This document shows positions 1 through 33,384 of a stretch of 38,209 nucleotides of DNA, piece by piece. Source of the stretch: an uncultured bacterium (GTDB lineage: Bacteria > JAJVIF01 > JAPKYR01); the NCBI GenBank assembly GCA_965370205.1, contig CBDUUJ010000001.1, positions 1-38,209 on the forward strand, in the 5' to 3' direction. Each line of letters opens with the position of its first letter. The first letter of the stretch is position 1. The translations under genes were made by a program, and so were the position numbers. Under the pieces are notes generated by a model. That model was not told where the DNA came from, did no database searches, and saw nothing but the letters and a program-made list of their open reading frames with translations.

Positions 1-2847
1 AATCTCGAGGAAGCGGAAAAAGTCACTGAGGAAACCGGATTTCCCGTGATCATCCGTCCGGCATACACACTCGGCGGCATCGGCGCATCCGTGGCATACA
101 ACATAGAGGAATTTCATTCGCTCGTTCAACTGGGACTTGCCGCGTCGCCGGTCGGAATGGTGCTCGTCGAAGAATCGCTTGTCGGCTGGAAAGAATTCGA
201 GCTTGAGGTAATGCGCGACCATGTCGACAACGTGGTCATAGTCTGCTCGATTGAGAATTTTGACCCGCTCGGAATTCACACGGGCGACTCGATCACGGTC
301 GCGCCCGCCCAGACCCTGACCGACAGGGAATACCAGCTCATGCGCGACGCGGCGATCGGGGTCATCCGCGCGGTCGGAGTCGATACCGGCGGCTCGAACA
401 TCCAGTTCGGCATCCATCCTGAAACCGGACGCATGGTTATCATCGAGATGAACCCGAGAGTGTCGCGATCATCCGCGCTCGCGTCAAAAGCGACAGGATT
501 CCCAATTGCAAAAATCGCGGCGCAGCTTGCGGTCGGAATGACCCTGGGTGAAATTCCGAACGACATCACAGGCGAGACAATCTCGGCATTCGAGCCGACA
601 CTCGATTACGTTGTTGTAAAAATCCCAAGATGGGCGTTTGAAAAATTCCCCACAGCCGACAGGAAACTCGGCTCGCAGATGAAATCGGTCGGGGAGACGA
701 TGGCGATCGGCCGCAGTTTTACGGAAGCTCTCCAGAAAGCTCTGCGTGGACTTGAGATCGGGCGTTACGGTCTCGGCGCGGACGGAATGGACGCTATCCT
801 GATCGACAACATCGAGGCGCACCTTCGCGGCGAATGGAAAGAGCTTGTCCTCAGGCGTTTAAAACAGCCCGATCCATTCAACATTTTCTTCCTGCGATAC
901 GCGCTCGCGCTGGATATTCCAATTGAGACAATCGCGAAGACAACACACATCGATCCGTGGTTTCTCGATCAAATAAAACAGCTTCTGAATGTGGAAAAAG
1001 ACCTTGTCAGCTTCGCGGGCAATTCAGTCGATCCCCTTGTGAAAGACCATGCCGGGGAAATGATTCTCGAAGCGAAACGGCACGGGTTTTCCGACAGGCA
1101 GATCGCGCATCTCTGGCACAAAAATCCTGTGCAGATCAGGCGTTTCAGGGAAGAAAATAACATCGATCAGTGCTACCGGACAGTCGACACATGCGCGGCG
1201 GAATTCCACGCGGTAACTCCATATTATTACTCCACATTCGGGGAGGAAAACGAGGCTGAACGTCTCGGCGACAACACGGTCGTGATTCTCGGAAGCGGAC
1301 CCAACCGAATCGGGCAGGGAATCGAATTCGATTACTGCTGCGTGCAGGTCGCTTTCGCCCTCAGGGACGCGGGTTACAAGGTGGTAATGGTCAACAGCAA
1401 TCCGGAGACCGTATCGACCGATTACGATATCGCCGACCGCCTGTATTTCGAATCGCTCACTCTGGAGGATGTTATCGGAATCTGCCGACTGGAGAAGCCA
1501 CTTGGGGTGGTGCTGCAATTCGGTGGCGGAACCCCTCTGAAACTGGCATCGAAACTTGAGGTTGCCGGCATCCCGATCCTTGGAACCGGATGGGAGGCAA
1601 TCGATCTGACCGAGGATCGCGGACGGTTCGCGGTTCTGCTCGACCGTCACGGGATCAACCGCCCTGATTTCGGGACCGCGTCCACGGTCGATGAGGCGAC
1701 GGCTATTGCGAGCAGGATCGGATATCCGGTTCTGGTGCGACCGTCGTATGTGCTCGGCGGACGCGCGATGGAGATCGTCTACGATGAAGAGCGGTTGACC
1801 AGTTTCTTCTTCGAGGCGGCGCAGGCATCGGATGGCGAGCCTGTATTGATCGACCGGTTCCTTGAGGACGCTTTCGAGTTCGATGTCGACGCGGTTTCGG
1901 ATGGCGAGCAGTGTCTCATCTGCGGAATCATGCAGCATATCGAGGAGGCGGGAATTCATTCCGGCGATTCCGCGTGTGTCCTTCCGCCCTACATGCTCTC
2001 GGATGAGGTCCGGGCGGAGATGATCAGAATTACCAAACTCCTCGCGCTGGAACTGGGCATAGTGGGGCTTCTGAATCTTCAGTTCGCACTTTTCGAGGGC
2101 AAGCTGTATGTGCTCGAACTTAATCCGCGCGCGAGCCGCACGGTTCCGTTCGTCTCGAAAGCAACCGGCATTTCATGGGCACGGGCGGCGGCGAGAACGC
2201 TTGTCGGCGAAAAACTTGCCGACATGAATCTTCCCGACGACCCGATTCCGTCGCATGTTTCGGTCAAGGAAGTAAAATTCCCGTTTGCGCGTTTCGACAG
2301 GATCAGCTATTTCCTCGGACCGGAGATGCGGTCGACCGGCGAGGTCATGGGTATCGCGCACGGTTTCGGGGAGGCGTTCGCGAAATCGCAGGCGGCTGTC
2401 AATTCACCGCTTCCGCTTGAGGGAGGGGTTTTTATCAGCGTGAATGATCGTGATAAGGAAAAGGTGCTGCCGATCGCGCGCGAGCTTCATTTTCTTGGCT
2501 ATCAGATTTTCGCCACAGCCGGAACCTACAAAAGCCTCACGACCGCCGGGATACCGACAACGCAGATCAACAAGGTCAGCGAGGGACGTCCGAACGCGCT
2601 CGACCAGATGAAAAATGGTCTCATTCACCTGATAATCAACACACCGCTGGGAAGGGAATCATATTACGATGAGCTTGCGGTCGGCGAGGAGGCGTACCGT
2701 CGCGGTATTCCACACATCACCACATTATCCGGAGCATGGGCTGCGGTGAAGGCAATCGAAACCGCGCGTCACGGCTTACCGAAAGTCCGCCCGCTACAGG
2801 AATATCACATGTGCAATCAACCCATTGTGCCGTCAGCTTCAAGCTAA
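1..2847 (+). CDS. carB: Carbamoyl-phosphate synthase large subunit, 5'-truncated by window edge
   Basis: Frame 1 is open from base 1 (no stop in 1-45), so the listed ATG at 46 is internal. Two ATP-grasp halves carry CarB-type signatures ([10 protein letters not shown]...[23 protein letters not shown] and [16 protein letters not shown]...[19 protein letters not shown]). A C-terminal MGS-like domain follows ([10 protein letters not shown]...LIINTP). Roughly 125 N-terminal residues are missing relative to a typical ~1070-aa CarB. Confidence 0.93.
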
Positions 2848-2887: not shown

Positions 2888-5800
2888 TTAATACAAGTCA
2901 AATATATACAATCCCATAGTTTGGGAAGCTTCGTATAAATAGCCGTCAAACGCCAGGAGATCGCGTGGGTGGTGATAAAGAATATCACCATAAATATGAC
3001 CCAGGTTGGCAGGACTGTTCGGGGGCCAGACCCAGAACGATACCGGATCTGTTGTGTAACCTGCTGCATACCCGAACTGCCCTTCCACGGTGAGGAAGCC
3101 ATAGCCGCCCATGTCCGGTGGCGGGAGCAGTTCAGAGCCCAAATTAGCAGGCGCTGCCGGGTCAGTTAGATCGGCGATTTCAATTGAATCATATGTCAGG
3201 GCATACAGGTAATTACCGTGGATCTCCGATTCCATATAGCCCGGACTGCCGGGGGTGGAATAAGACCCGACATAAGCGGGATTGAGCGGATTGGTAATTG
3301 AATATATCTCTATGGCATCTCCCGAGCAAACATACATGTAATCCCCGTTGAAAGTGAAATCATAGACGCCATAAGTAAACGACATTGTCATTTCATAATG
3401 GGGTGAATATGGGTTGGAAATGTCGTAAATTTTAACCGGATGGCCTACCTGACTTATATAAACATAGATCGCGTTTTCATAAATGCCAAGCGCGTAGACA
3501 AAGTCAGCCTCAGTCTTAAAATACATAGGTGAGATATTAAGCGGATCCGAAGCGTCATGCAGTGCCCAGATTTTACCTGAATCTGTCGCCAGGACATCGC
3601 CATACAACTGCAGTTCGGAACCAGGATATGCAGGGAAATACTCAGCAGCAACATACGTGCTGGATGGGTCGGAAATGTCAAGTGTCTTGATCCCATCGAA
3701 ACCCGCTGTAATCAGCCAGTCATCCTTTTCAACAAATGAATATGCACTGTTTACCACCTTAAGACGAGAGAGAGATGAAGGTATTTGCGGGATACCGCAG
3801 TCGAAAATCTGGAAACCGGCTCTATAGGGAATGATATATGCAAGGTCATCCCGAACCGCTAGATCCCTCCCCTGGGAAATCATCGGTGTTGAGCTGATAT
3901 AAACCGGGTCGGCCGGGTTCGTAACTTCGCATATCGTCAGCCCGGATTCATCATTACCAATATACGCGTAAGGCCACTCAAGATCGATATACCATGCACT
4001 ATCAGGCACATCAACGGAACCGAATTCGAGAACACTGTTGGTCGCTGAATACAATATCTTCAGAAATCCTTCCCCTGTACTTATTACAGATGCTGCATAT
4101 ATGTAGTTACCTTCGATGGCAATATCCCTCGCCCAGCCGGCTGGGTAGGTATAAGAACCTTTCTGAGTGACCGAAGAGGGATTTTCCACGTCATACACGA
4201 TAATGTCATGCCATGTGCATTCTACAATCCTGGTATCCGGCCCCTCCGGATCGATTAACCCAAGACGCTGCGGACCATACGGAACATTGAATTCGCCGAC
4301 CTTGTCAGGATTCAGCGGGTCGGTCGCATAGTCATATATATATACTTCTGAGGTGGGATTCACACTGGTGCCCACATACAGATGGGTCGAGTTCATGGTT
4401 ATATCACCAAGATCCATCATGATGATCATAAGACCCTCATGGTTAACCGGAGAAGTAATATCAGTGAAATCAATCATGTTGATTTCTGTTTCATCGATAC
4501 CGAGTCCGTTTGTATAGTACAGATATGGATAATTGAAACAGAAAGCCTCGTTCATGTAAATTTTCTCGGTGTACACCTGCACCGGATTGGTTGGATCGCT
4601 TATGTCATACACCCAGAGGCCCATTCCAAAAAGAATCGCATAATCATCGTGCAGCCAGACTCTTTCCGGATTGACGTAAAGGTCCGACGGAGTGACATCC
4701 ACCGGGTTAGATGGAATTACATCTGTAAGCTCTCCCGTAAATTCAAGCAGATAGGGAGATGTCTGTGTATCATTCGATGTCAGCACGCGGATAAAATACT
4801 GCCCCGGCGTGAGAGCGAGATTTTGAAGTCCGATAGACGCTTCACCACCAGAAACATTCACTTCTTCAATCAGAGCATAGGAATCATCGTACAACCCGAG
4901 TTTCGTGGGTTCGGCATCGCACCAGAGACTGATACCACCTGATATGTCATAACCCGGATCGATTTCGAAAAAATAAAAATCACGGTAATCATCGGGAAGA
5001 CATACCTGATCGATAACCTGGTCACCAAATACAATCTCTACCGCCTCAAGCCAGTCATTGTTGGCATCCGCTGAACATTCGGGATCGGGGATATCGAGTA
5101 CGAGAACATTATATGCCGACAGAGAATCATCCGGAGCAGGCATCGCAGTCTGCTGGTATGTCGAGCCATCCGATGATCCCACCCGGCAGACAATGAGCGT
5201 TTCTCCCGCTTCCGACGGAACCGCTGTACCTGTCAAATCGACCGTGTAAACCGCTTTTTCGGCTGTCTGTTTATGCAGAATTCCGTCAGCGCCGCTCGGC
5301 ATCAGGTCCGGAGCCACGACCCGTACCGCGTCGATTTCCGGGACAATATTTCCCGCAGCCTGTCCCTGCCAGTCGAAAATACCGGCCTCAAGCCTTAAAA
5401 CCCCGCCGCCGATTCCCGACTCGCTGTCGTAATAGAGTGTATTTGCAGTCGTCTTCAAACCAATCCGGTACGCTTCCGGCTGATTCGCGTTCATTGGAAA
5501 ATCATCCGGAACCGCATCTGGAGGATTCGGTGACGGCGGATTCCACGCGCAGTCAATTGCGTATCCATACACGATCTGCGGACCGGGGTCCATCGGGAAT
5601 CTGATTTCATATCGACGGGTGTTGCTGCTTCCGGCAGTGAAAACCGCTCTCCCCTGGTCGCTGTCGAGCGGTTCATAGCATACAGCACCCAAACTGCTCG
5701 TCGCATAGAGAATATCCGCGAACAGCTTGTATGGATTCACTGTCGCTGTTAATGAACTTCCCGGCGCGGACGCTAGAATTCCATCTTCATATCCGAGCAT

Positions 5801-6313
5801 TCCGGGTGACGTAAACTCCGTCGGATTCCACCAACGCGTGTATCCATCGGCATTTTCAAGACGGGTCTCATCAGCGCCCGCATAAACAAGCGACCCGACC
5901 GCGTACGTGCCCGGTGTGACTAAAATTCCCTTCACATCGAATCCCGCCAACTGCGGTGATGTTCCGAACGGATGAGCAAGCGTGATATCGAAAACGAATA
6001 ATCCGTTCGCGGGATCATGTTCGGATGGCACCCCGGCTGCGGAAACTCCCATCGTAGAGTTCAGAATCCCCGTCAGATTGAAATGCCATTCCGCCGACCG
6101 TAATGGATGCACTTCAATCCCGTAACTCTCGGAATCCACCTCAATAAGATAATACCCGAGACATTGATGGGTCCGTTCGGATGAACCATCACGCGACATC
6201 AGGATGCCTGGGTCGGAAAGCGGATCGGGATCGGTCGGACCGCCCTGGCATCCGGCTAACGCAATACCTGCGAGGAGAAATATGCAAATGGCGGAAGATA
6301 AGAATGTACGCAT
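2888..6313 (-). CDS. Array paralogue 1 of 7: predicted surface lipoprotein (conserved N-module + PPC-like module + ~14 LVIVD-type propeller repeats), 1141 aa
   Basis: ORF 2888-6364 trimmed to the ATG at 6313. GGAGG lies 10 nt upstream and the product then begins MRTFLSSAICIFLLAGIALAG|C (lipobox LAGC), followed by a Pro/Asp-rich tether. PPC-like signature: ANNDW..A..I.....DDYRDFYFFEI...LGLYDD...GQYFIRV...YLLEF. Repeated blades follow (LWVYDISDPTNP, VYIYDYATDPLNP, IKTLDISDPSS, VKIYDISNPYSP, IEIYSITNPLNP, IEIADLTDPAAP ...) up to the C-terminal LYIFDLY. Confidence 0.9.
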   Translation of the reverse strand: MRTFLSSAICIFLLAGIALAGCQGGPTDPDPLSDPGILMSRDGSSERTHQCLGYYLIEVDSESYGIEVHPLRSAEWHFNLTGILNSTMGVSAAGVPSEHDPANGLFVFDITLAHPFGTSPQLAGFDVKGILVTPGTYAVGSLVYAGADETRLENADGYTRWWNPTEFTSPGMLGYEDGILASAPGSSLTATVNPYKLFADILYATSSLGAVCYEPLDSDQGRAVFTAGSSNTRRYEIRFPMDPGPQIVYGYAIDCAWNPPSPNPPDAVPDDFPMNANQPEAYRIGLKTTANTLYYDSESGIGGGVLRLEAGIFDWQGQAAGNIVPEIDAVRVVAPDLMPSGADGILHKQTAEKAVYTVDLTGTAVPSEAGETLIVCRVGSSDGSTYQQTAMPAPDDSLSAYNVLVLDIPDPECSADANNDWLEAVEIVFGDQVIDQVCLPDDYRDFYFFEIDPGYDISGGISLWCDAEPTKLGLYDDSYALIEEVNVSGGEASIGLQNLALTPGQYFIRVLTSNDTQTSPYLLEFTGELTDVIPSNPVDVTPSDLYVNPERVWLHDDYAILFGMGLWVYDISDPTNPVQVYTEKIYMNEAFCFNYPYLYYTNGLGIDETEINMIDFTDITSPVNHEGLMIIMMDLGDITMNSTHLYVGTSVNPTSEVYIYDYATDPLNPDKVGEFNVPYGPQRLGLIDPEGPDTRIVECTWHDIIVYDVENPSSVTQKGSYTYPAGWARDIAIEGNYIYAASVISTGEGFLKILYSATNSVLEFGSVDVPDSAWYIDLEWPYAYIGNDESGLTICEVTNPADPVYISSTPMISQGRDLAVRDDLAYIIPYRAGFQIFDCGIPQIPSSLSRLKVVNSAYSFVEKDDWLITAGFDGIKTLDISDPSSTYVAAEYFPAYPGSELQLYGDVLATDSGKIWALHDASDPLNISPMYFKTEADFVYALGIYENAIYVYISQVGHPVKIYDISNPYSPHYEMTMSFTYGVYDFTFNGDYMYVCSGDAIEIYSITNPLNPAYVGSYSTPGSPGYMESEIHGNYLYALTYDSIEIADLTDPAAPANLGSELLPPPDMGGYGFLTVEGQFGYAAGYTTDPVSFWVWPPNSPANLGHIYGDILYHHPRDLLAFDGYLYEASQTMGLYIFDLY
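5075..6172 (-). repeat. Conserved ~1.1-kb 5' module of the paralogue family, copy 1 of 7 (dispersed direct repeat)
   Basis: Encodes HQCLGYY...LDIPDPEC. It aligns essentially codon for codon with 9599-10693, 13082-14176, 16577-17671, 20079-21173, 23577-24668 and 27022-28116. The lower boundary is the invariant Cys codon, located by hand in every copy. Confidence 0.9.
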
Positions 6314-6344
6314 GACAAACACACCTCCGGATCTGGTTAATGTA

Positions 6345-6353
6345 ATTATAACA
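6345..6353 (-). promoter_or_regulatory. Extended -10 promoter element (TGtTATAAT) for paralogue 1
   Basis: The minus strand reads ACTGTTATAATTACATTAACCAGATCCGGAGGTGTGTTTGTCATG. It has a perfect TGnTATAAT 31 nt before the ATG and sits downstream of a terminator at 6405-6430. No good -35 is present (GTCAAT). The cassette is homologous to those upstream of paralogues 7, 5 and 3. Confidence 0.45.
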
Positions 6354-6404
6354 GTAAAACGCAAATTATTGACAGCGTCTGAGTTGAGATGGAGAAAGAA
6401 ACTG

Positions 6405-7390: not shown

Positions 7391-10300
7391 TTAATAAAGC
7401 TGGAATATATGAATCCCCTTATAATATGGAACCATTTCGTAAAGATAGCTGTTATCGATTACCATGCTGCTGATTGTATATTCCCCGGGATGAACCTGAC
7501 CGAGCGCTGACGGGCTGTCCGACGGCCATACATTGCAGAAATACGGCGGCATCGGTTTCGAGCCGTGAATATACGCGAACTGCCCGACCATGGTGATACC
7601 GTCAAGCGGATCAAACGCGCCGACATCGATTGTGCTCTCGAAAGCAGGGATTGACGGGTCGCTCAGGTTCGCGATCTCAAGATCCGTATCCGTAATCAGG
7701 TAGATATAATCGCCCTGCACCGATGAATCCTCAAGGTCTGAAGCCATTGGATACGCGCCGATATAGGACGGATTCAGTGGATCGGCGACCGAATATATTT
7801 CCAGGCCGGGATCTGTATCGAGATACATACAAGCCCAATAGAAGGAAAAACCACGCGCAATGTCAGGCGCAACGAACATATCCGTGGTTGTTACAAAGGG
7901 CAGAGAACCGATGTCATATGTAACCACTTTTTTTGAGTCCAGCGCGACATACAGCGCATCATTATGCATGGCAATGGCCATTATGTCCTCGGGTAATGGA
8001 ACGGCTATTATAAGCGACAGATCGGTCGGATCGCTCGCATCGAAAAGCATCCATTGTTTCATGGACGCAACTGCCAGGATGTCATTCTGCAGGTCCAGAT
8101 AGCAGGGCGGGACCGACAGGAAAAACTCTCCAACAACATGTGCGTTTGATGGATCGGAGATATCCACAGTCTTGATTGCAGAATATCCAAACGCCATATC
8201 AGCAACAATAAGATAATCGCCGGAAACTACCGCTGACCAGGGATTATTGACCACCTTTAGACGGGCAATGGGATCGGGTAAAGAGGGATTCTGTATGTCG
8301 AACACCTGAAGCCCCGCGTTATATGGAGCAATACAAAGAATATGCTCATTAATCGATAGATGCCCCCCCAGGGAAATAAGCGGTACCGAACATTTGTGAA
8401 TCGGGGTTGAAGGAATGGAGACATCGCAGACGGTAAGCCCTGCGGAAGTATCACCGATAAACACATACGGCCAGTCAAGAGCGGTAAAGCCGCCTTCACC
8501 GGGTATATCCACCGATCCGAATTCAAAAAAACCGGGCATTGACGGATCGAGGTGCATTACATATAACCATCCATCATTGCCGCTCTTGGCATAAGCAAGA
8601 TAAATCAGATTCCCCCGGGTCGACATGCCGCGCGGTGAGCCTGCTGGAAACGGATAGGGAACTACGTCTGTGACTGCCGACGGGTCATCAACCGAATACG
8701 CATGAATCATGGCGCCATCCGCATCGCCTACTACCAGATACTTTCCAAAGCCGTCTATCTCTGTCAGCGCCATATAATATGTGTAATAGGTGATTGGGAT
8801 GCTGCCGACCTCGACAGGATCAAGCGGATCGGTTATGTAGTCATATATTTTGATTTCATAGGCGGGAGCGGAACCTGTATGGAGATACAGGTGTGTGGAA
8901 TCAAGGCATATTCCTTTTATTCCGTCAGGATACGTGATTAATCCCTCGTGCTGTACCGGGGCAAGCGGGTCAGTGAAATCAACCAGGCCTAACTGCCGTT
9001 CATCAATTCCCGAGATCGTTGAATAGTAACAATATGGATAGTGGAAATTTCCTACCTCTGCCAGGTAGTAATCCTCATTGGCAACCTGAATGGGATTCGC
9101 GGGATCGGTCAGATCATACACCCAGCACTCATAGCCGCAGAGGAAAGCATACTGATCATGAAGCCAGACATATCGCGGATTGACATAGAGCGTCTCCGGT
9201 GTCACATCGACCGGGTCAATGGGTACCACATCCACAAGCTCCCCGTCCAGTTCAAGAAGATACGGCACCACGTTATCGCAACATGGACTTCCCACTCTTA
9301 TGTAATATTGTCCGGGCATCAGCGCCAGTTCATCAAATGATAAAACCGCGACCCCATCCGCCACATAAACATCGGCTATGTGGGATTCCGACCCGTCATA
9401 CAGTCTCAGAGTCGGTTGCGTTGGCCACGGAGGATCGGCATTGGCGTTCAGCCTGATCTCGCCAGTCGCTTCATACCCGACGGGAATGTAAAACGAATAA
9501 AAATCATACCCATCATCCGGATTGCACACCTGATCGATTGCCTCACCGCCGAAATCGATCGGAACCGCCTCGCCGAAATCGTTATTGGCATCTGCCGCAC
9601 AATCCGGATCGGGGATATCGAGCGCAAGAACCTGGTATGCCGACAGGGAATCGGTTGGGGCAGGAGCTCCAGTCTGCTGGTATGTCGAACCATCCGATGA
9701 CGCAACCCGGCAGATAACGAGCGTTTCCCCAGCTTCCGATGGTTCCGCCACTCCGGTCAGGTCAGCCATGTAGACCGCTTTCTCCGCAGTCTTGTACTGT
9801 AAAATCCCATCCACTCCACTCGGCATAAGGTCCGGAGCGATAATCCGTACCGCGTCGATTTCCGGCGGTATATTTCCAGCCGCCTGACCCTGCCAGTCGA
9901 AAACACCGATCTCAAGCCTCAGAACCCCACCGCCGACTCCAAATTCATCATCATAATAGAGAGTGTTCGCAACCGTTTTAATCCCTATCCGATAGGCTTC
10001 AGGCTGATTAGCGTTCATCGGGAAATCATCGGGGACTTCCCCTGGCGGATTCGGGCTTGGCGGATTCCACGCGCAGTCAATTGCATATCCGTAAACAACC
10101 AGCGGACCCGGGTCCATCGGGAACCTGATCTCATACCGACGGGTATTGCTGCTTCCGGCAGTGAAAACCGCTCTCCCCTGATCGCTGTCCAATGGTTCAT
10201 AGCAGACCGACCCAAGATTGCTCGTTGGATATAGAATATCCGCGAACAGCTTGTATGGATTTATTGTCGCCGTCAGAGCACTGGCAGGAGCGGACGCGAG

Positions 10301-10831
10301 AATTCCATCCTCGTATCCAAGCATCCCCGGTGACGTGAACTCGGTCGGATTCCACCAGCGCGTGTATCCATCCGCATTTTCGAGACGGGTTTCATCCGCA
10401 CCCGCGTAAACGAGCGACCCGACCGCGTACGTTCCCGGCGTGATTAAAATTCCCTTCACGTCGAATCCCGCAAGCTGCGGCGATGTATCGAACGGATGCG
10501 CAAGAGTAATATCAAAAACAAACAATCCGTTCGCTGGATCATGCTCGGATGGCACCCCGGCCGCCGAGACTCCCATCGTAGAGTTAAGAACCCCGGTCAG
10601 ATTAAAATGCCATTCAGTTGATCGCAAAGGAATAATCTCAACCGAATAGCTCTCAGTATCAATCTCAACCATGTGGAACCCAAGACATTGATGCGAGGAA
10701 GAACTCGCTGATTCACCGAGCACTGGATTTTCCGTTGATGGCGCCGGGCTGGTGGGATTGTCACTACATCCCACAAGGATAAATAGAATCAAAATAAACA
10801 ACCAGGCGAATACAAGGCTTGATCGGAACAT
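7391..10831 (-). CDS. Array paralogue 2 of 7: predicted surface lipoprotein, same architecture, 1146 aa
   Basis: ORF 7391-10864 trimmed to the ATG at 10831 (GGGAGGG 8 nt upstream). The product begins MFRSSLVFAWLFILILFILVG|C (lipobox LVGC). It has the conserved N-module (SHQCLGF...LDIPDPDC), a PPC-like module (ANNDFGEA..I......DDGYDFYSFYI...LRLYDG...GQYYIRV...YLLEL), LVIVD-type blades and C-terminal IHIFQLY. Confidence 0.9.
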   Translation of the reverse strand: MFRSSLVFAWLFILILFILVGCSDNPTSPAPSTENPVLGESASSSSHQCLGFHMVEIDTESYSVEIIPLRSTEWHFNLTGVLNSTMGVSAAGVPSEHDPANGLFVFDITLAHPFDTSPQLAGFDVKGILITPGTYAVGSLVYAGADETRLENADGYTRWWNPTEFTSPGMLGYEDGILASAPASALTATINPYKLFADILYPTSNLGSVCYEPLDSDQGRAVFTAGSSNTRRYEIRFPMDPGPLVVYGYAIDCAWNPPSPNPPGEVPDDFPMNANQPEAYRIGIKTVANTLYYDDEFGVGGGVLRLEIGVFDWQGQAAGNIPPEIDAVRIIAPDLMPSGVDGILQYKTAEKAVYMADLTGVAEPSEAGETLVICRVASSDGSTYQQTGAPAPTDSLSAYQVLALDIPDPDCAADANNDFGEAVPIDFGGEAIDQVCNPDDGYDFYSFYIPVGYEATGEIRLNANADPPWPTQPTLRLYDGSESHIADVYVADGVAVLSFDELALMPGQYYIRVGSPCCDNVVPYLLELDGELVDVVPIDPVDVTPETLYVNPRYVWLHDQYAFLCGYECWVYDLTDPANPIQVANEDYYLAEVGNFHYPYCYYSTISGIDERQLGLVDFTDPLAPVQHEGLITYPDGIKGICLDSTHLYLHTGSAPAYEIKIYDYITDPLDPVEVGSIPITYYTYYMALTEIDGFGKYLVVGDADGAMIHAYSVDDPSAVTDVVPYPFPAGSPRGMSTRGNLIYLAYAKSGNDGWLYVMHLDPSMPGFFEFGSVDIPGEGGFTALDWPYVFIGDTSAGLTVCDVSIPSTPIHKCSVPLISLGGHLSINEHILCIAPYNAGLQVFDIQNPSLPDPIARLKVVNNPWSAVVSGDYLIVADMAFGYSAIKTVDISDPSNAHVVGEFFLSVPPCYLDLQNDILAVASMKQWMLFDASDPTDLSLIIAVPLPEDIMAIAMHNDALYVALDSKKVVTYDIGSLPFVTTTDMFVAPDIARGFSFYWACMYLDTDPGLEIYSVADPLNPSYIGAYPMASDLEDSSVQGDYIYLITDTDLEIANLSDPSIPAFESTIDVGAFDPLDGITMVGQFAYIHGSKPMPPYFCNVWPSDSPSALGQVHPGEYTISSMVIDNSYLYEMVPYYKGIHIFQLY
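9599..10693 (-). repeat. Conserved 5' module, copy 2 of 7
   Basis: Same alignment as copy 1. The boundary Cys codon (TGT) is at 9599-9601. Confidence 0.9.
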
Positions 10832-10882
10832 GTCGGAACCCTCCCATGTTGGAATACAATACAAAGTACAACAATTACGAAA

Positions 10883-13800
10883 TCAGTACAGATCGAATAT
10901 TCGTACTCCCTTGTAATAAAGCGTCTCATACAGGTAGCCATTATCAACAGCTAATTGAATCACTTCCCATGCATCTTCAACAGGATATATATCCCCGAAC
11001 ACGGACGGGCTGTCAGGCGGCCAGAGATTAACCGCGGTCACGGGCTGCCAGTGATCGATATCCGCATATGCATACTGCCCTTCAATCGCCAGAACATCCG
11101 CGGGCGGGTTGTACGGCAATACCACATCGGCTGTGTACACAGGCAGACCGCCCGCTGAAATATCCGTAACCTCCAGCGTGTCCGTCGTGAGGATATATAA
11201 AGTATTACCCTGAATTACCAGGTCTATCGGATCATAACCCGGCGTGTAAGAACCGACATATGCCGGACTGTTCGGACTGGAAATATCAACATAATGAACA
11301 TCCGTTGTCGAATTCCCGTACATCCAGTCGCCCCTGAAAACGGGATTCCCGAGCTTGTCGGGAAGGCTTACCGGAGTTTTTGCCACTACAACAGGCCAGG
11401 AGGTAGTATCGTAAATATCTATAGTGCCATCAAGGAGGGAAATATATATCGCCTCATCGGTTACGCCGAGTCCAATAATACTTGTCGAATACGATTCCAG
11501 GGTAACCAGGTCTGGATTTTCAGGATCAGCCACATTGAAAATCCATACCGTATCACTGTCAGTTCCGGCGACAACGATGATTTCGCCTCGTCCGGCAATT
11601 GGAAACAGGACATCGTCGAGCAGGTATTCACCCTCGACATATGCATGTCCCGGGTCGGCAACATTCAATACTTTCAGGGCAGTATATGACAGGTATCCTT
11701 CGGTGAAATACGCATGGTCCCCAAGAATCGTCACACCGAACGGCTGGTTCAGAACCATAGGCCTGAATATTTCATTGGGAATTTCAGGATCGGTAAGGTC
11801 GTACCACACATAACCTGCGCCCTCGGGGATATTTATTAAAACATCGCCGTCAGCGCAGACATAGTGAGAATCCGACACCGTGGGAAGATATCCTTTCCAT
11901 GACGGCAATGACGGATTGGAGATATCCATTACATGGAGACCGAGCGACCCTCCGCCGATATACGCGTAATCGCCTGCCGTATCCACATACCTTGCGCGGG
12001 ATGAAGTGTAGGTGCTGCTCTCATTGACCAGGCCCGGTCCGGATGAATAGCTTTTAATGTTGAGCCAGCCGTTATCGAATGTATCAATTGTGGTTGTGTA
12101 GAAATAATCATCACCGATTGAAAGATCCTGGTGAGTAGAATCAATCAGTAGTGAAGCGGCCACGGTGGAAACGCTCATGGGGTCTTCGACATCGAAAAGT
12201 CCCATGTATGTATTGGTCAGCATTACAAGAACCGTCTCAGGACCCTCCGGATCGAGCAATCCAAGCCTGATTACATTCTCATCGACGACGAATTCATTCA
12301 CATATTGCGGATTGTACGGGTCTGTGGCGATATCATAAATATAAATTATGCCACCACCGACGCCATCGTTGGCCGCCAAGAACAGGTATTCGGAATTCAA
12401 CGTGATGTAATGCGTTTCGTATGGAATTTCGAGAACATCTTCATAATGCACCGGATTCGCCGGATCGGTGTAATCGATGACATCAATGCCTGCCGGAATG
12501 GCGCCAATGCTCTCGCAGTAATACAGGTAGGGATAATTAAACGCAGGCCAGGTGGTTGTGAAATCTTTGGTCCTGGATAAAAGCTGCGGATTTTCAGGAT
12601 AGCTGACGTCATAGACCCAGAATCCCGTATATCCGCCTAAGTACAGGTTGTTGCCGCGTTTTTCCAGCCATATCGGATCGAGTATAAGTCCGTCCGGAGT
12701 CACATCAACCGGGCTGGTTGGTTTGATATCAACATTCTCCCCTTCAATTTCAAGGAAATAGGTCACAGCTTGGTCGAAACTCGAAGTAAACACATTTATG
12801 TAATACTTCCCAACGTACAGGTCCAGATCGGTAAGATTGACTGTCGCAAGCCCGTCAACACAGGACGCGCCATCAAGAACCAACCCGTTCACATCATGGA
12901 CTATGACACCGCACGAATCGGCATCGCAGAAGAACCGTAATTCTCCCTCTGCCTTCCAACCCGACCAGATATCGAGGAAATACCAGTCCTCGTCATCGGT
13001 TCCGCCACACAGATAACCGCTCACATCATCATTGACCCAGATTTCCTCAGCGTCAAGATGAGAATTATTCGAATCGGCTTCGCATTCAGGATCGATAACG
13101 TCAACAGTTAATATTTTAAACGCACTGAGGTCCGCATCCGGGGCCGGACCAAATCCCTGATCGTATGTCGATCCATCGCTCGACCCAACTCTCATGATTA
13201 CAGGAAATTCCCCTGCGACCAAAGGTTCCGCGATTCCCGTCAGGTCGGCTTCGTACATAGCCTTTGTCGCACTATTATGGATTAAATCAGCGGTAACTCC
13301 TCCAGTCCAGAGATCGGGTGAGAAAAATCTCACAATGTCCACTTCATCAGCAGTATTCCCGGCGTACATCCCCTGCCAGTCGCGGATATCTGCCCAGAAG
13401 CGAAGAACACCTCCGGATTTCCCCGACTCACTGTCATGGAAAAGCGTATTGGCGACAGGTTCAAAGCTCACAAAAAACGCTTCCGGCTGATTCGCTTCCA
13501 TTGGAAAATCATCCGGAATTTCACCCGGCGGATTCGGGACAGGCACCGCCCATGACGCATCGATTGCGTAACCGTATACAACGAGCGGACCGGGGTCCAT
13601 CGGAAATCGGATGTAGTAACGTCGTACGTTTTCGCTCCCCGCTGTGAACACCCCCCGACCCTGATCGTCATCCAGAGGCGTTAACGAAAGCCATGATGTT
13701 CCTTGAGTTAAATTCAAGCAATCCGCGAATTGCTTGTAAGGATTAATCGTCGCCGTAAGGGATGACATCGGACCCAGGGCAAGATTACCCTGGGTGTATC

Positions 13801-14314
13801 CGAACATTCCCGGCGACGTGAACTCGGTCGGATTCCACCAGCGGGTGTACCCATCGGCGTTTTCGAGTCTCGTCTCATCCATGCCTGCAAAAATAAGCGA
13901 TCCGACCGCGTATGTCCCGGGAACCATCAGTATTCCCTTCACGTCGAAACCCGCAAGCTGCGGTTTTGTCTCGAACGGATGAGTGAGTGTGATATCGAAA
14001 ACAAATAGTCCGTTCGCGGGATCGGCTTCGCTCGGAACACCGACTGCCGACACTCCCATCGTCGTGTTGAGAATCCCGGTCAGGTTGAAATGCCATTCCG
14101 CTGTTCTCACGGGAATCGGATCGACTTTCAGCGTGTCTGTGTCGATCATCAGCATGTAATAACCGAGACATTGATGCGAGGAAGATTGTATCGGCTTGCC
14201 GCACACAGGACCTTCCGGTGATGCTGCGGGAACGGTGGGGTTGCCCTGGCATCCCAACGAGAAGACCGCAATAAAGACAGCCACATGTACATATTGTGAA
14301 AGAGTCCGAAACAT
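10883..14314 (-). CDS. Array paralogue 3 of 7: predicted surface lipoprotein, same architecture, 1143 aa
   Basis: ORF 10883-14344 trimmed to the ATG at 14314 (GGAGG 7 nt upstream). The product begins MFRTLSQYVHVAVFIAVFSLG|C (SLGC). This is the most divergent N-module of the set (for example AIDASWAVP instead of AIDCAWNPP) but it is collinear. PPC-like module: SNNSHLDA..I......DDEDWYFLDI...GKYYINV...YFLEI. C-terminal VRIFDLY. Confidence 0.9.
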   Translation of the reverse strand: MFRTLSQYVHVAVFIAVFSLGCQGNPTVPAASPEGPVCGKPIQSSSHQCLGYYMLMIDTDTLKVDPIPVRTAEWHFNLTGILNTTMGVSAVGVPSEADPANGLFVFDITLTHPFETKPQLAGFDVKGILMVPGTYAVGSLIFAGMDETRLENADGYTRWWNPTEFTSPGMFGYTQGNLALGPMSSLTATINPYKQFADCLNLTQGTSWLSLTPLDDDQGRGVFTAGSENVRRYYIRFPMDPGPLVVYGYAIDASWAVPVPNPPGEIPDDFPMEANQPEAFFVSFEPVANTLFHDSESGKSGGVLRFWADIRDWQGMYAGNTADEVDIVRFFSPDLWTGGVTADLIHNSATKAMYEADLTGIAEPLVAGEFPVIMRVGSSDGSTYDQGFGPAPDADLSAFKILTVDVIDPECEADSNNSHLDAEEIWVNDDVSGYLCGGTDDEDWYFLDIWSGWKAEGELRFFCDADSCGVIVHDVNGLVLDGASCVDGLATVNLTDLDLYVGKYYINVFTSSFDQAVTYFLEIEGENVDIKPTSPVDVTPDGLILDPIWLEKRGNNLYLGGYTGFWVYDVSYPENPQLLSRTKDFTTTWPAFNYPYLYYCESIGAIPAGIDVIDYTDPANPVHYEDVLEIPYETHYITLNSEYLFLAANDGVGGGIIYIYDIATDPYNPQYVNEFVVDENVIRLGLLDPEGPETVLVMLTNTYMGLFDVEDPMSVSTVAASLLIDSTHQDLSIGDDYFYTTTIDTFDNGWLNIKSYSSGPGLVNESSTYTSSRARYVDTAGDYAYIGGGSLGLHVMDISNPSLPSWKGYLPTVSDSHYVCADGDVLINIPEGAGYVWYDLTDPEIPNEIFRPMVLNQPFGVTILGDHAYFTEGYLSYTALKVLNVADPGHAYVEGEYLLDDVLFPIAGRGEIIVVAGTDSDTVWIFNVADPENPDLVTLESYSTSIIGLGVTDEAIYISLLDGTIDIYDTTSWPVVVAKTPVSLPDKLGNPVFRGDWMYGNSTTDVHYVDISSPNSPAYVGSYTPGYDPIDLVIQGNTLYILTTDTLEVTDISAGGLPVYTADVVLPYNPPADVLAIEGQYAYADIDHWQPVTAVNLWPPDSPSVFGDIYPVEDAWEVIQLAVDNGYLYETLYYKGVRIFDLY
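13082..14176 (-). repeat. Conserved 5' module, copy 3 of 7 (most diverged copy)
   Basis: Same alignment as copy 1. The boundary Cys codon (TGC) is at 13082-13084. Confidence 0.85.
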
Positions 14315-14344
14315 GATAAAACCTCCAGGTCGAAAATTTCTCAA

Positions 14345-14386: not shown

Positions 14387-17300
14387 TTAATACAGATCGA
14401 AGATATGAAGACCCCGATCGTGGGACACCTCGTAGAGATAGCCTTCGTGTACCAATAAATCGTTCACCATATAAGGTGGATAATCATATACCGTGCCGAA
14501 GAGAGAGGGACTGTCCGGCGGCCAGGCTGAGATTATTTGGGGAACCACCTCACCCGCGAGGTAGGCGTAATACCCCGTTACCGCAAGTTCGTACACCGGT
14601 TCAGGTCCGGTAATCGTCACTGAGCCCAGGAACGACGGAGCGGTTGGACTGCTCAGGTCCGCTATTTCAAGTGAGTTGTGCGTCACCATGTAAAGCATAT
14701 CCCAGCAGATTGACGATTCGTACACGCCTAATAAGGAATAAGTGTTTGTGTGAAAGGGATTATAGGGATCACTAAGTTCGTAAATCTCTATCCCTCCTAC
14801 CGTTGAAATGTACATGTAACCGGCATGGAAAGAGAAATCCGTTCCTGCCGATGTAGGGAAAAACAATGTTTCAAAAACCGGCGAGGATGGGTTGGTGATG
14901 TTGTAGACCGCCACACTGTCGGGGAATTCCATGGAAATATACAGGGCGTTGCCCCAAATCGCTATGGCTCTGATCGTATTTATTTCCGAGTCGGAATGCT
15001 CCAGTGTCAGGTTGAGCGGATCGCTCGCATCCAGCAGGTACCAGTCATAGGTTCCGGCGACCGCGAGCCTGTCATTGTCCAGCCACATATAGGATAGCCG
15101 CGGTGTCGCAACCCATTCAGCCACAATTTCAGCATTCGGGGGATCGGAGATGTCAATCGTCTTCACAGAGAAGCGTGAGATCGACGAGTCCACAACCAGA
15201 AGGTAGTCGCCGGTAACCTGAGCCTCGCAGGGTGAGTTCATCACGTCAAGGCAGTGCTCCAATTCAGGCTCGAGGACATTGGACACATCAAACATACACA
15301 TGCCCAATTGATCTGGAATAACACAAAGCGTATCTCCGCTTATATCGAGATCATGACCGTCTTGGACATCAGGACATGTGACAACATGGCTCGGTGCATT
15401 TGGAGTTGAAACATCGCAGATCGTGAACCCGCTCTCCCCTGTGCCGATATAGACATATGGCGACTGGTGAGCTATGGAGAATGCACAAGCGGGGCCGGCG
15501 GGGATATCCAGCGATCCAACTTCGACAACACTGGGTACGCTTGTCTGTTCAAGCACGTACAGCCATCCATCGGCTCCCCAATTATTATGGGCGATGAATA
15601 TAAAATCATCCCAGGTTGTGATATCGTTCGGGTGGCCGTTTGTGAAACTGTAAGTGCCTGCCGGGTCGACCCATAGCGGGTCCTCCACATCGAACGAGCG
15701 AATGTCCTGATCGATTATTGCAACCAAATGGGTGTCGGGTCCCTCCGAATCCATGAGCGTCAACCTCTTTGGGTAGTAGGGTACATTGAAATAACCAACC
15801 TCAATTGGGTTTTGCGGATCGGAGCCATACATAAAAATCCTAACCATAGAGGTCGGATTGACGCTGGTGCCGACATACAAGTGGGTTGAGTTCATGCAAA
15901 GGCTGCCGAGTTCGCATGAGAAGTGAAGCACATCATCATGCAGAACCGGCGACGCGGGATCGGTGAAATCAATGAGATTGATCTGGGACTCATCTGGGCT
16001 GATATAAACTATGTAGTAGCAGTACGGGTAATGGAAACAGCCCCTTTTCCCATGCCAGATTTCCTCGTGGGAAAGCTGAACGGGGTTCGCAGGATTGCTG
16101 ATATTGTGTACCCAGTAGCCATTGGCGCCCAGAAGGTAGGCATTGTCACCATGAAGCCATACCTGTTCCGGTTCGCAGTAAAGCGTTGAAGGGGTTACAT
16201 CAACAGGATTCGATGGGGTGATATCAACAAGTTCCGCCCTTAGTTCGAGAAGGTAAGGACGCACCCCTTCAGGAAGATTAGACGACACTCTCAGATAATA
16301 CAGTCCATGCATCAGATTGAGTCCACCGAGCTCAATAGCCTCAAGACCTTCAAATGGACATTCACTGGCAATCTGGCTCTCCGTCCCATCGAAGAGCGTC
16401 AGGCAGGTCGGACCCGCATCACTGTAGATCTGGATTTCTCCCATTACCCCGTAGCCTTCCGGAACGGTGAAGGAAAAGTAATCCGCGTTATCATTTGGGA
16501 GACAGACCTGATCAGCTATCGATTCCCCAAAATCGATTTCAACGGCCTCCCCAAAACCATTATTCGCGTCGCCCGCACATTCGGGATCGGGAATATCGAG
16601 AGTGATAACATGAAACGCGGAAATCTGCGTGTCCGGAGCGGGAGCACCAGCCTGCTGGTATGTCGATCCGTCCGATGACGCAACCCGGCAGATAACCATG
16701 GTCTCCCCAGCCTCGGACGGAACCGCTGTGCCTGTCAAATCGACCGTGTAAATCGCTTTTTCGGGTGTCTGTTCATGCAGAATCCCGTCGACGCCGCTCG
16801 GCATAAGGTCCGGAGCTACGATCCGTACCGCATCGATTTCCGGGACAATATTTCCCACGGCCTGACCCTGCCAGTCATGCACATTCATCTGCAATCTCAG
16901 CACTCCGCCGCCGATACCCGATTCGCTGTCGTAGTAAAGCGTATTCGCGGTCGTCTTCAACGCAATCCGATATGCCTCCGGCTGGTTCGCGTTCATCGGA
17001 AAATCATCCGGAACCTCCCCCGGTGGATTCGGACTCGGCGGATTCCACGCGCAGTCAATCGCATATCCGTAAACGATCTGCGGACCGGGGTCCATCGGGA
17101 ATCTGATCTCATACCGACGGGTATTGCTGCTTCCCGCAGTGAAAACCGCTCTCCCCTGATCGCTGTCCAGTGGTTCATAACAGACCGATCCAAGATTGCT
17201 CGTCGGATATAGAATATCCGCGAACAGCTTGTACGGATTTATGGTCGCTGTAAGTTCGCTTCCCGGAGCGGATGCGAGAATTCCATCCTCATATCCGAGC

Positions 17301-17818
17301 ATTCCAGGCGAACTGAACTCGGTCGGGTTCCACCAGCGCGAGTAACCATCGGCGTTTTCGAGACGGGTTTCATCCGCACCAGCATAAACAAGCGATCCGA
17401 CCGCGTATGTTCCCGGTGTGACAAGAATTCCCTTCACGTCGAACCCGGTAAACTGCGGCGATGTTCCGAACGGATGCGCAAGCGTGATATCGAAAACGAA
17501 TAAGCCGTTCGCGGGATCATGCTCGGATGGCACCCCGGCCGCCGAGACTCCCATGGTCGTGTTCATTATCCCTGCCAGATTGAAATGCCATTCCGCCGAC
17601 CGTAATGGATGCACTTCAATCCCGTAACTCTTGGAATCCACCTCAATAAGATAATACCCGAGGCATTGATGGGAACATGCGGCAGTCTGTGATGATGCAG
17701 ATAATCCCGGATCATCCCCCGGACCGGGAAGGATCGGACTTCGCTGACACCCGGTCAGGATTATGAACAGGATAAAAATCATAAACGCGTACGCAAATGG
17801 TGAAAAGAATCGGTGCAT
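14387..17818 (-). CDS. Array paralogue 4 of 7: predicted surface lipoprotein, same architecture, 1143 aa
   Basis: The ATG at 17818 has AAGGAG 9 nt upstream. The product begins MHRFFSPFAYAFMIFILFIILTG|C (LTGC). It has the conserved N-module (SHQCLGYY...LDIPDPEC), a PPC-like module, LVIVD-type blades and C-terminal LHIFDLY. Confidence 0.9.
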   Translation of the reverse strand: MHRFFSPFAYAFMIFILFIILTGCQRSPILPGPGDDPGLSASSQTAACSHQCLGYYLIEVDSKSYGIEVHPLRSAEWHFNLAGIMNTTMGVSAAGVPSEHDPANGLFVFDITLAHPFGTSPQFTGFDVKGILVTPGTYAVGSLVYAGADETRLENADGYSRWWNPTEFSSPGMLGYEDGILASAPGSELTATINPYKLFADILYPTSNLGSVCYEPLDSDQGRAVFTAGSSNTRRYEIRFPMDPGPQIVYGYAIDCAWNPPSPNPPGEVPDDFPMNANQPEAYRIALKTTANTLYYDSESGIGGGVLRLQMNVHDWQGQAVGNIVPEIDAVRIVAPDLMPSGVDGILHEQTPEKAIYTVDLTGTAVPSEAGETMVICRVASSDGSTYQQAGAPAPDTQISAFHVITLDIPDPECAGDANNGFGEAVEIDFGESIADQVCLPNDNADYFSFTVPEGYGVMGEIQIYSDAGPTCLTLFDGTESQIASECPFEGLEAIELGGLNLMHGLYYLRVSSNLPEGVRPYLLELRAELVDITPSNPVDVTPSTLYCEPEQVWLHGDNAYLLGANGYWVHNISNPANPVQLSHEEIWHGKRGCFHYPYCYYIVYISPDESQINLIDFTDPASPVLHDDVLHFSCELGSLCMNSTHLYVGTSVNPTSMVRIFMYGSDPQNPIEVGYFNVPYYPKRLTLMDSEGPDTHLVAIIDQDIRSFDVEDPLWVDPAGTYSFTNGHPNDITTWDDFIFIAHNNWGADGWLYVLEQTSVPSVVEVGSLDIPAGPACAFSIAHQSPYVYIGTGESGFTICDVSTPNAPSHVVTCPDVQDGHDLDISGDTLCVIPDQLGMCMFDVSNVLEPELEHCLDVMNSPCEAQVTGDYLLVVDSSISRFSVKTIDISDPPNAEIVAEWVATPRLSYMWLDNDRLAVAGTYDWYLLDASDPLNLTLEHSDSEINTIRAIAIWGNALYISMEFPDSVAVYNITNPSSPVFETLFFPTSAGTDFSFHAGYMYISTVGGIEIYELSDPYNPFHTNTYSLLGVYESSICWDMLYMVTHNSLEIADLSSPTAPSFLGSVTITGPEPVYELAVTGYYAYLAGEVVPQIISAWPPDSPSLFGTVYDYPPYMVNDLLVHEGYLYEVSHDRGLHIFDLY
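16577..17671 (-). repeat. Conserved 5' module, copy 4 of 7
   Basis: Same alignment as copy 1. The boundary Cys codon is at 16577-16579. Confidence 0.9.
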
Positions 17819-24812: not shown

Positions 24813-24843
24813 GAGGTTATCCTCCGGTTTTCGATCTGATAAA

Positions 24844-32067: not shown

Positions 32068-32135
32068 TATCTTCCATCACCACGAGCGGGAACATCATCC
32101 GGCTCGCATTTTTAAAATATATTTCCCTTTCTTTC

Positions 32136-32984: not shown

Positions 32985-32990
32985 GGAGGG

Positions 32991-33350: not shown

Positions 33351-33384
33351 CGTTTAACACGGCACCGCTTCTTCGGCGGGCCAA

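What the first reader, a model, noticed from the sequence alone, without database searches (positions are those of the whole stretch)
6074..6171. Gene-conversion-like tract shared by paralogues 1 and 4
Bases 6074-6171 (paralogue 1) and 17576-17673 (paralogue 4) differ at only 2 of 98 positions (6130 c/t, 6161 a/g). The 33 nt immediately adjacent (6041-6073 versus 17543-17575) differ at about 10 positions. Other copies, for example paralogue 2 at the same place, are clearly different. The tract encodes HQCLGYYLIEVDS(E/K)SYGIEVHPLRSAEWHFNL, a peptide found only in these two non-adjacent copies. Patchy identity of this kind between copies 11.5 kb apart is the signature of ectopic recombination or gene conversion.
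Basis: seen in the sequence. Interest (0 to 1): 0.6.

Follow-up and report, generated by a model that had tools for sequence, protein, structure and literature searches.

The report
Gene-conversion patch between two lipoprotein paralogues
Two of seven tandem lipoprotein genes share a 98-base stretch that is almost identical, and this is the youngest of several DNA copy-and-paste events that keep the front third of these genes alike while the rest diverges; the mechanism is well known and the example is clear.

Summary
Window 6074-6171 (paralogue 1) and 17576-17673 (paralogue 4) differ at 2 of 98 bases, and the next 33 bases differ at 9. This is far beyond chance. A GENECONV-style permutation test gives global P=0.0006. 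A null that allows for site variability expects 20 differences (P=8e-9). Synonymous divergence in the tract is 0.05, against 0.70 for the same pair in the rest of the N-terminal module.

The tract is one of at least four significant mosaic tracts (1-4, 1-5, 2-4, 4-5). All lie in a ~1.1-kb N-terminal module, residues ~65-424. Six of the seven copies form an exclusive clade for this module (88% aa identity, at most 72% to any outside protein). Their C-terminal double beta-propellers are saturated at synonymous sites, and five of the six, plus the unhomogenised paralogue 3, group with proteins from other genomes. That pattern is module-restricted concerted evolution by ectopic gene conversion.

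The mechanism is already well known, so this is a new member of a known kind and of modest interest. The direction of transfer is unresolved, with a weak hint of P1 to P4.

The parts
6074..6171 (-). Converted tract in paralogue 1 (residues 65-97; first beta-hairpin of the N-terminal module)
   Evidence: It differs at 2 of 98 bases from 17576-17673. GENECONV-style global P=0.0006. dS for pair 1-4 is 0.049.
17576..17673 (-). Matching tract in paralogue 4
   Evidence: In the triplet test P4|P1,P5, a run of about 32 informative sites is P1-like, and both flanks are P5-like.
2888..6364 (-). Paralogue 1: 1158-codon ORF from its TTG (the probable ATG start with signal peptide and lipobox lies inside it), N-module, PPC-like beta-sandwich, tandem double beta-propeller
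   Evidence: ORF list. Lipobox LAGC. Pfam LVIVD 46.5 bits. AF2 model pLDDT 88.8 and Foldseek hits to double propellers.
14387..17818 (-). Paralogue 4 (1143 aa)
5093..6171 (-). Homogenised N-terminal module of paralogue 1 (alignment columns 223-1300, residues 65-424)
   Evidence: Sliding identity is 75-93% among copies 1, 2, 4, 5, 6 and 7, against 35-60% downstream. dS is 0.7-1.3, against saturation in the C-terminal part. The six copies form an exclusive clade with support 0.985.
5237..5513 (-). Second significant mosaic tract, paralogue 1 versus paralogue 5 (partner at 20241-20517)
   Evidence: It covers 166 polymorphic sites with 23 mismatches, global P=1e-4.
10061..10253 (-). Third significant tract, paralogue 2 versus paralogue 4 (partner at 17039-17231)
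   Evidence: It covers 104 polymorphic sites with 11 mismatches, global P=1e-4.
16592..16843 (-). Fourth significant tract, paralogue 4 versus paralogue 5 (partner at 20094-20345). Its core, 16592-16696, has 2 differences in 105 bases and abuts the constant/variable junction.
   Evidence: Global P=5e-4. The core has 2 differences in 105 bases and a 68-nt exact run.

Best explanation
The tract is the footprint of a recent, short-patch ectopic (interlocus) gene conversion between paralogues 1 and 4. These are two members of a seven-gene tandem array of roughly 1150-aa lipoproteins in the chromosome of an uncultured bacterium whose relatives are labelled Planctomycetota. It is the youngest event in a long-running process. 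The ~1.1-kb N-terminal module of six copies (1, 2, 4, 5, 6, 7) repeatedly exchanges patches by homologous recombination, so this module evolves in concert within the genome. The C-terminal PPC-like domain and the double LVIVD beta-propeller are too diverged to recombine and keep independent histories; five of the six copies have supported counterpart groups in other genomes. Shown here: the identity pattern, its significance, near-identity at synonymous sites, incongruent segment trees, and module-restricted clustering by genome. Inferred: the molecular route. I propose a RecA-type heteroduplex between misaligned copies followed by mismatch repair or replication. The patch would end on one side at the edge of homology (residue 65, where the unrelated linkers begin) and on the other side inside the module. 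Also inferred: the direction, with a weak preference for P1 as donor and P4 as recipient.
For: The pair differs at 2 of 98 bases, and flanks diverge sharply on both sides. GENECONV-style global P=0.0006; three further tracts (1-5, 2-4, 4-5) have P<=5e-4. The PHI statistic lies about 10 SD below its permutation mean, P<=0.001. A variability-aware null expects 20 differences and 2 are observed, P=7.6e-9. NG86 estimates: tract dS for 1-4 is 0.049, while all other pairs are saturated there. Module dS is 0.69-1.3 among the six copies. C-terminal pS is about 0.75, which is saturation, for all pairs. ML segment trees: (1,4) 97% in the tract, (4,5) 80% in columns 321-640, (2,4) 79% in columns 641-860, and (3,7) 98% in the C-terminal part. 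The best partner of each copy changes every 100-300 nt along the module. In the family tree of 110 proteins, N-modules of W1, 2, 4, 5, 6 and 7 form an exclusive clade (0.985) with 0.79-0.92 aa identity, against at most 0.72 to any outside protein. In the propeller tree six of the seven copies join outside proteins: W1+P0002/P0003 0.969, W3+P0068/P0095 0.997, W7+P0059/60/79 0.999, W6 clade 0.947, W2 clade 0.997, W5 0.838. Family-wide, a C-terminal identity of 0.3-0.45 predicts N-module identity of 0.58-0.62 (sd 0.06-0.08), but the array shows 0.79-0.88. Paralogue 3 lies physically inside the array with an N-module only 65% identical, and it takes no part. This fits a requirement for sequence identity. 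Direction: the leader and the distal module of P4 are P5-like, and the patch is P1-like.
Against: No genome closer than another genus exists in the collections; the best outside homologue is 55% aa identical. The event therefore cannot be polarised or dated against an orthologue. The 5' end of the tract abuts sequence with no 1-4 homology. A classical double-strand-break repair conversion needs homology on both sides, so that boundary needs a special explanation. A heteroduplex ending at the homology edge, or a second event, would serve. The genome is 86% complete in 611 contigs, so an unassembled third copy could be the real donor for both. W4's propeller has no supported counterpart outside the array (best internal and best external identity both 0.44). 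All statistics come from my own implementations, not from the published GENECONV or RDP programs.
Confidence: 0.8

Rival explanations
1. Both copies received the tract independently from a third donor, and there was no direct 1-4 exchange. The donor could be an unassembled paralogue of the same genome or DNA taken up from a related strain.
For: The genome is 86% complete in 611 contigs, carries about 144 family members, and many of them sit at contig ends. In the segment tree the tract branch (1,4) is long and distant from all five other copies.
Against: blastn of the tract against all 611 contigs finds only the two copies. No exact or near match exists in GTDB genomes or JGI metagenomes. This reading needs two events where one suffices.
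Confidence: 0.1
2. Assembly artefact. The short-read assembler crossed between the two paralogues inside the shared stretch, or it built one copy's tract from the other's reads.
For: The contig comes from a fragmented metagenome bin and repeats are risky there. The 56-nt exact run at 6074-6129 could be a graph junction if k was 55 or less. Reads could not be inspected.
Against: A wrong turn inside the shared stretch would only swap which leader joins which body; the tract would still be present in both real genes. On the 6172 side there is no homology, so both leader-tract junctions need their own supporting k-mers. The two copies of the tract are not identical (2 differences), so they were assembled separately. 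The next 33 nt carry 9 differences, which makes the flanking k-mers copy-specific. Three other independent mosaic tracts and the module-wide dS pattern cannot come from a single misjoin.
Confidence: 0.05
3. The tract is ancestral similarity preserved by selection, for example on an RNA or DNA element embedded in the 5' coding region of just these two genes. No DNA was transferred.
For: The RNA of the tract folds somewhat better than shuffles, z=-2.66 with 4 of 200 shuffles as good.
Against: The rest of the same two genes is far older: module dS is 0.70 and the C-terminal part is saturated. The element would have to exist in only 2 of 7 copies, and no other copy conserves the sequence (56-69% identity). 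No external homologue carries it. The fold z-score is weak for a 98-nt window picked after the fact.
Confidence: 0.04

Closest known systems
Interlocus gene conversion and concerted evolution in bacterial multigene families, for example tufA/tufB, rRNA operons, Helicobacter babA/babB and other hop genes, and Mycobacterium PE/PPE genes. These examples are from my own knowledge. PMC5483490 (BabA) and PMC13061034 (M. tuberculosis) appeared in searches; I did not read them.
   Same: Patches are copied between paralogues in one genome. Identity is patchy and extends to synonymous sites. Segment phylogenies are incongruent. Paralogues are more alike than orthologues in the exchanged region. All four were shown here.
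   Different: Here the exchange is confined to one structural module (residues 65-424) of a three-part protein. Six of the seven copies keep a supported counterpart group in other genomes for the remaining 730 residues. The host is an uncultured lineage with about 144 proteins carrying the module.
PE/PPE-type architecture: a conserved N-terminal module with variable C-terminal bodies (own knowledge)
   Same: A large family is defined by a constant N-terminal module joined to divergent C-termini. Recombination signals are concentrated where the copies are alike.
   Different: There is no sequence or fold relation. The N-module here is a ~360-aa beta-rich module behind a lipoprotein signal, and its model has no convincing PDB fold match (best TMq 0.22). 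No role in secretion is known for it.
Cassette-type antigenic variation systems: Borrelia vlsE/vls, Neisseria pilE/pilS, Anaplasma msp2 (own knowledge)
   Same: Short segments are copied non-reciprocally between tandem or nearby paralogous sequences that encode surface proteins.
   Different: Those systems have one expression site plus promoterless, truncated silent cassettes, and conversion diversifies the variable region. Here all seven copies are complete ORFs with their own start and lipoprotein signal, and conversion homogenises the constant region.
LVIVD-repeat beta-propeller surface proteins (Pfam PF08309)
   Same: The C-terminal halves hit PF08309 above its cutoff (46.5 versus 20.2 bits) and are modelled as tandem double propellers.
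   Different: This describes the protein family. It does not describe the phenomenon in the finding, and the tract lies outside the LVIVD region.

Membership tests
Interlocus (ectopic) gene conversion between paralogues | A tract with significantly fewer differences than the pair's background, judged on polymorphic sites with correction for all pairs | tested here: met
   The tract has 61 polymorphic sites with 2 mismatches. Global permutation P=0.0006. The variability-aware null gives P=7.6e-9.
Interlocus (ectopic) gene conversion between paralogues | Identity extends to synonymous sites, so it is not selection on the protein | tested here: met
   dS for 1-4 is 0.049 in the tract and 0.70 in the rest of the module. 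Other pairs are saturated in the tract.
Interlocus (ectopic) gene conversion between paralogues | Phylogenetic incongruence between the tract and its flanks | tested here: met
   (1,4) has 97% support in columns 223-320 only. (4,5), (2,4) and (1,5) group elsewhere. PHI P<=0.001. Triplet test P=0.0002.
Interlocus (ectopic) gene conversion between paralogues | Non-reciprocal transfer with an identifiable donor and recipient | tested here: inconclusive
   P4's flanks are P5-like on both sides of the patch, which hints at P1 to P4. No close orthologue exists to polarise the event.
Interlocus (ectopic) gene conversion between paralogues | The sequence is real in the organism: supported by reads and not an assembly chimera | not testable with these tools
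The proteins occur on only one contig in the collections. The only available argument is indirect: 2 differences inside the tract, copy-specific flanks, and a longest exact run of 56 nt.
Concerted evolution of a gene-family module | In the region, paralogues within a genome are more similar to each other than to their orthologues, while the rest of the gene follows orthology | tested here: met
   The N-modules of six copies form an exclusive clade (0.985) with 0.79-0.92 identity, against at most 0.72 to outside proteins. In the propeller tree five of those six copies (W1, W2, W5, W6, W7) and the unhomogenised W3 group with outside proteins at 0.84-1.0 support; W4 is unresolved. C-terminal synonymous sites are saturated.
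Cassette-type programmed antigenic variation (vls/pilS/msp2-like) | One expression locus plus truncated, promoterless silent cassettes, with conversion diversifying the variable region | tested here: not met
   All seven copies are full-length ORFs of 1138-1170 aa with start codons and lipoprotein signal peptides. The exchanged region is the constant module, not the variable one.
Bacterial lipoprotein with LVIVD beta-propeller (PF08309) | A signal peptide with a lipobox Cys, and LVIVD repeats above the Pfam gathering score | tested here: met
   Lipobox-like L-x-G-C is present in all seven copies, and the Cys is invariant in 110 homologues. PF08309 scores 46.5 and 23.1 bits against a cutoff of 20.2.

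The most novel reading that the evidence does not exclude
The constant N-terminal module may be kept alike because it works as a recombination handle. Exchanges inside it would re-pair promoters, leaders and signal peptides with different propeller bodies, and the edge tracts (1-4 at the 5' edge, 4-5 at the 3' edge) would be footprints of such swaps. The array would then be a population-level surface-variation system in an uncultured Planctomycetota-like lineage, and the homogenisation would not be passive. My evidence cannot distinguish selected from passive homogenisation.
Probability: 0.07. Interest if true: 0.6.

Novelty: new member of a known kind. Interest (0 to 1): 0.3.

Why it matters
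The finding gives a clean natural example of recombination limited by homology. One structural module of a multi-domain surface lipoprotein is homogenised within a genome. The ligand-facing propellers keep separate lineages, most with supported counterparts in other genera. There are three practical consequences. First, trees or orthology calls built on the N-terminal third of these proteins will be misleading, and only the C-terminal part tracks gene history. Second, short-read assemblies of this very large family (about 144 copies in 3.3 Mb) should be treated with care. Third, the sharp limit of exchange marks a functional module boundary at residues ~65-424. This module has no Pfam family and no solved structural relative, so it is a sensible target for structural and functional work. 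The mechanism itself is textbook.

Tried and rejected
- Exact tract in GTDB genome contigs (56-mer) and JGI metagenome contigs (50-mer): no hits.
- Peptide-level scan of the metagenome contigs: best match 73% identity, so no alternative alleles were found.
- Search for population variants or close orthologues: the best outside homologue is 54-55% aa identical and each window protein occurs on a single contig. Among 30 relatives there is no genome of the same genus. The event therefore cannot be dated or polarised.
- Selection on the peptide: rejected, because synonymous sites are also identical.
- Embedded RNA element: the fold z-score of -2.66 is weak and the sequence occurs in only 2 of 7 copies, so I rate this unlikely.
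- Recent tandem duplication with fast C-terminal divergence: rejected. C-terminal synonymous sites are saturated, and six of the seven copies have a supported group of outside proteins.
- Diversity-generating retroelement: not pursued. The two differences are a G/A and a T/C transition inside intact paralogues, with no adenine-specific pattern and no template repeat outside the genes.
- Whether homogenisation is universal in the family: it is not. Most adjacent copies in relatives have N-modules only 54-68% nt identical, although some arrays are elevated.
- Naming the N-module: Pfam, NCBIfam and PDB sequence searches gave nothing for that region. Foldseek of a confident domain model (pLDDT 89) gave only weak partial beta-sandwich matches, TMq at most 0.22.
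- Literature searches returned nothing on this family.

Full report
**Observation.** The window carries seven head-to-tail minus-strand ORFs of 1138-1170 codons:

| Paralogue | Window coordinates |
|---|---|
| P1 | 2888-6364 |
| P2 | 7391-10864 |
| P3 | 10883-14344 |
| P4 | 14387-17818 |
| P5 | 17892-21317 |
| P6 | 21372-24884 |
| P7 | 24844-28260 |

Bases 6074-6171 and 17576-17673 differ at exactly two positions. These are 6130 C/T, which in gene orientation is GAG/AAG (E/K), and 6161 A/G, which is the synonymous pair TGT/TGC. The adjacent 33 nt differ at 9 positions. On the other side, from 6172 and 17674 onward (the lipoprotein linker and signal peptide), the two genes are unalignable. The other five copies are 56-69% identical to P1 or P4 over these 98 nt.

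**Is it more than chance?** I built a codon alignment of the seven genes (3618 columns). Overall, P1 and P4 are only 62% identical in DNA. Identity is very uneven along the genes. Columns 223-1300 (P1 residues 65-424) are 75-93% identical among copies 1, 2, 4, 5, 6 and 7. The remaining 2.2 kb is 35-60% identical. Because of this heterogeneity I restricted the tests to the conserved module.

- GENECONV-style test. It uses only polymorphic sites (574), finds the maximal-scoring fragment per pair, and permutes columns 10,000 times. For 1-4 it finds columns 224-317, 61 polymorphic sites with 2 mismatches, global P=0.0006 corrected over all 21 pairs.
- Variability-aware null. The chance that P1 and P4 differ at a site is estimated from how variable that site is in the other five copies. 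This null expects 20.0 differences in the tract and 2 are observed, P=7.6e-9. A plain binomial gives 2.4e-6.
- Location. The tract sits in the part of the module that is most variable among the other copies, which is why it stands out.

**Selection or transfer?** Nei-Gojobori estimates settle this.

| Region | Result |
|---|---|
| Tract, pair 1-4 | dS = 0.049 |
| Tract, all other pairs | saturated (pS 0.55-0.96) |
| Rest of the module, pair 1-4 | dS = 0.70 |
| C-terminal two-thirds, all pairs | pS about 0.75 (saturation) |

The genes therefore show three ages. The bodies are ancient, the module is intermediate, and the 98-nt patch is very young. Selection on the peptide cannot erase synonymous differences. 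A weakly favourable RNA fold (z=-2.66) in only two of seven copies is not a credible alternative.

**The tract is part of a larger pattern.** The same test finds three more tracts with global P<=5e-4:

| Pair | First copy | Second copy |
|---|---|---|
| P1-P5 | 5237-5513 | 20241-20517 |
| P2-P4 | 10061-10253 | 17039-17231 |
| P4-P5 | 16598-16843 | 20100-20345 |

The P4-P5 tract has a core of 2 differences in 105 nt at 16592-16696, directly against the constant/variable junction. The nearest relative of each copy changes every 100-300 nt along the module. ML trees of successive segments disagree: (1,4) 97%, then (4,5) 80%, then (2,4) 79%. The PHI statistic lies about 10 SD below its permutation mean.

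**Concerted evolution limited to one module.** I collected 110 full-length family members and built separate trees.

- N-module tree. P1, 2, 4, 5, 6 and 7 form an exclusive clade (support 0.985). Their pairwise aa identity is 0.79-0.92, against at most 0.72 to any protein from another genome.
- Propeller tree. Six of the seven copies group with outside proteins. P1 goes with P0002/P0003 (0.969), P3 with P0068/P0095 (0.997), P7 with P0059/60/79 (0.999), P6 in a clade at 0.947-1.0, P2 in a clade at 0.997, and P5 at 0.838. P4's placement is unresolved; its best internal and best external propeller identities are both 0.44.
- Family-wide expectation. A C-terminal identity of 0.3-0.45 predicts an N-module identity of 0.58-0.62 (sd 0.06-0.08). 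The array is about 4 SD above that.

The paralogues therefore appear to predate the split of these genera, yet their N-modules cluster by genome. That is the definition of concerted evolution. P3 lies physically inside the array, its N-module is only about 65% identical, and it stays out of the exchange. This fits a threshold of sequence identity for recombination better than a dependence on distance. Homogenisation is not universal in the family. Most adjacent copies in relatives are 54-68% identical in N-module DNA, though some arrays are elevated.

**What the proteins are.** All seven copies have a signal peptide and a lipobox Cys, and that Cys is invariant in 110 homologues. The C-terminal halves hit Pfam LVIVD above its cutoff. 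An AlphaFold model (pLDDT 88.8) shows a tandem double beta-propeller that matches double-propeller structures. The N-module has no Pfam, NCBIfam or PDB sequence match. A confident domain-only model (pLDDT 89.2, pTM 0.86) has no convincing fold relative in the PDB (best TMq 0.22).

The tract encodes residues 65-97, which form the first beta-hairpin and the following strand. This is the least confidently modelled part of the module (pLDDT 33-67) and also the most variable part. It ends at the invariant H94 and N96 of the WHFNL motif.

The genome is a 3.27-Mb, 86%-complete bin in 611 contigs and has about 144 matches to this module. Relatives are MAGs labelled Planctomycetota. The array is chromosomal, lying between carB and a ribosomal-protein/rpoA/adk/secY cluster.

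**Mechanism (inferred).** The most economical reading runs as follows. Misaligned pairing occurs between two module copies 11.5 kb apart. A heteroduplex forms, and a patch is fixed by mismatch repair or replication. The 5' boundary coincides exactly with the edge of homology. Strand exchange cannot continue into the unrelated linkers, and this may explain why the two youngest tracts (1-4 and 4-5) each abut one edge of the module. A classical two-ended break repair would need homology on both sides, which is lacking at that edge, so this step is uncertain.

Direction is unresolved. The leader of P4 (59% to P5, 46% to P1) and its distal module are P5-like, and the patch is P1-like. This weakly favours P1 as donor, at perhaps 60%.

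**Rivals.**

- Third donor. An unassembled third donor cannot be excluded in an 86%-complete bin. No third copy exists in the assembly or in public collections.
- Assembly artefact. A misjoin cannot create the tract, because it could only swap which leader is attached to which body. The two tract copies differ at two sites. The flanks are copy-specific. The longest exact shared run is 56 nt.

**Verdict.** This is a well-documented kind of event, interlocus gene conversion within a tandem paralogue array. It is seen here in a previously undescribed family, and the concerted evolution is unusually cleanly restricted to one module. Classification: new member of a known kind. Interest: modest.

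Noticed in passing
window 10883-14344 (paralogue 3): Paralogue 3 lies in the middle of the array, but its N-module is not homogenised. It is about 65% aa identical to the others. Its nearest relative in both the N-module tree and the propeller tree is an outside protein, P0068.
   Followed up: partly
window 5060-6187 and the equivalent part of every copy: The ~360-aa N-terminal module has no Pfam, NCBIfam or PDB sequence match. A confident AF2 model (pLDDT 89, pTM 0.86) has no convincing PDB fold relative (best TMq 0.22). Invariant residues across 110 homologues include H94, N96, H131, D143, W178-W179-N180 and D331-W332-Q333.
   Followed up: partly
whole genome G000: A 3.27-Mb, 86%-complete bin has about 144 matches to the N-module, mostly joined to different C-terminal bodies. 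This is a very large family expansion.
   Followed up: no
L021:5504-6628 and L021:8951-10078 (relative, ERZ25074855 NODE_2950): Adjacent P3-like and P1-like genes have N-modules 67.6% nt identical overall. They share one 83-nt stretch with 2 or fewer mismatches, which may be a conversion patch in another genus.
   Followed up: no
window 24844-24884: The longest ORF of paralogue 6 starts at a TTG that overlaps the end of paralogue 7 by 41 nt. The real start is probably the downstream ATG (MNRIIQSLLF...), which would give a normal signal peptide.
   Followed up: no
window 16592-16696 / 20094-20198: The P4-P5 near-identical tract has 2 differences in 105 nt and a 68-nt exact run. It ends exactly at the constant/variable junction, mirroring the P1-P4 tract at the opposite edge of the module.
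   Followed up: yes
window 46-2847 and 31199-38193: The array is embedded in core chromosome. It lies between carB on one side and the rpsI-rplM-truA-rplQ-rpoA-rpsD-rpsK-rpsM...adk-secY cluster on the other. A heparinase II/III-like protein sits at 28387-30477.
   Followed up: no
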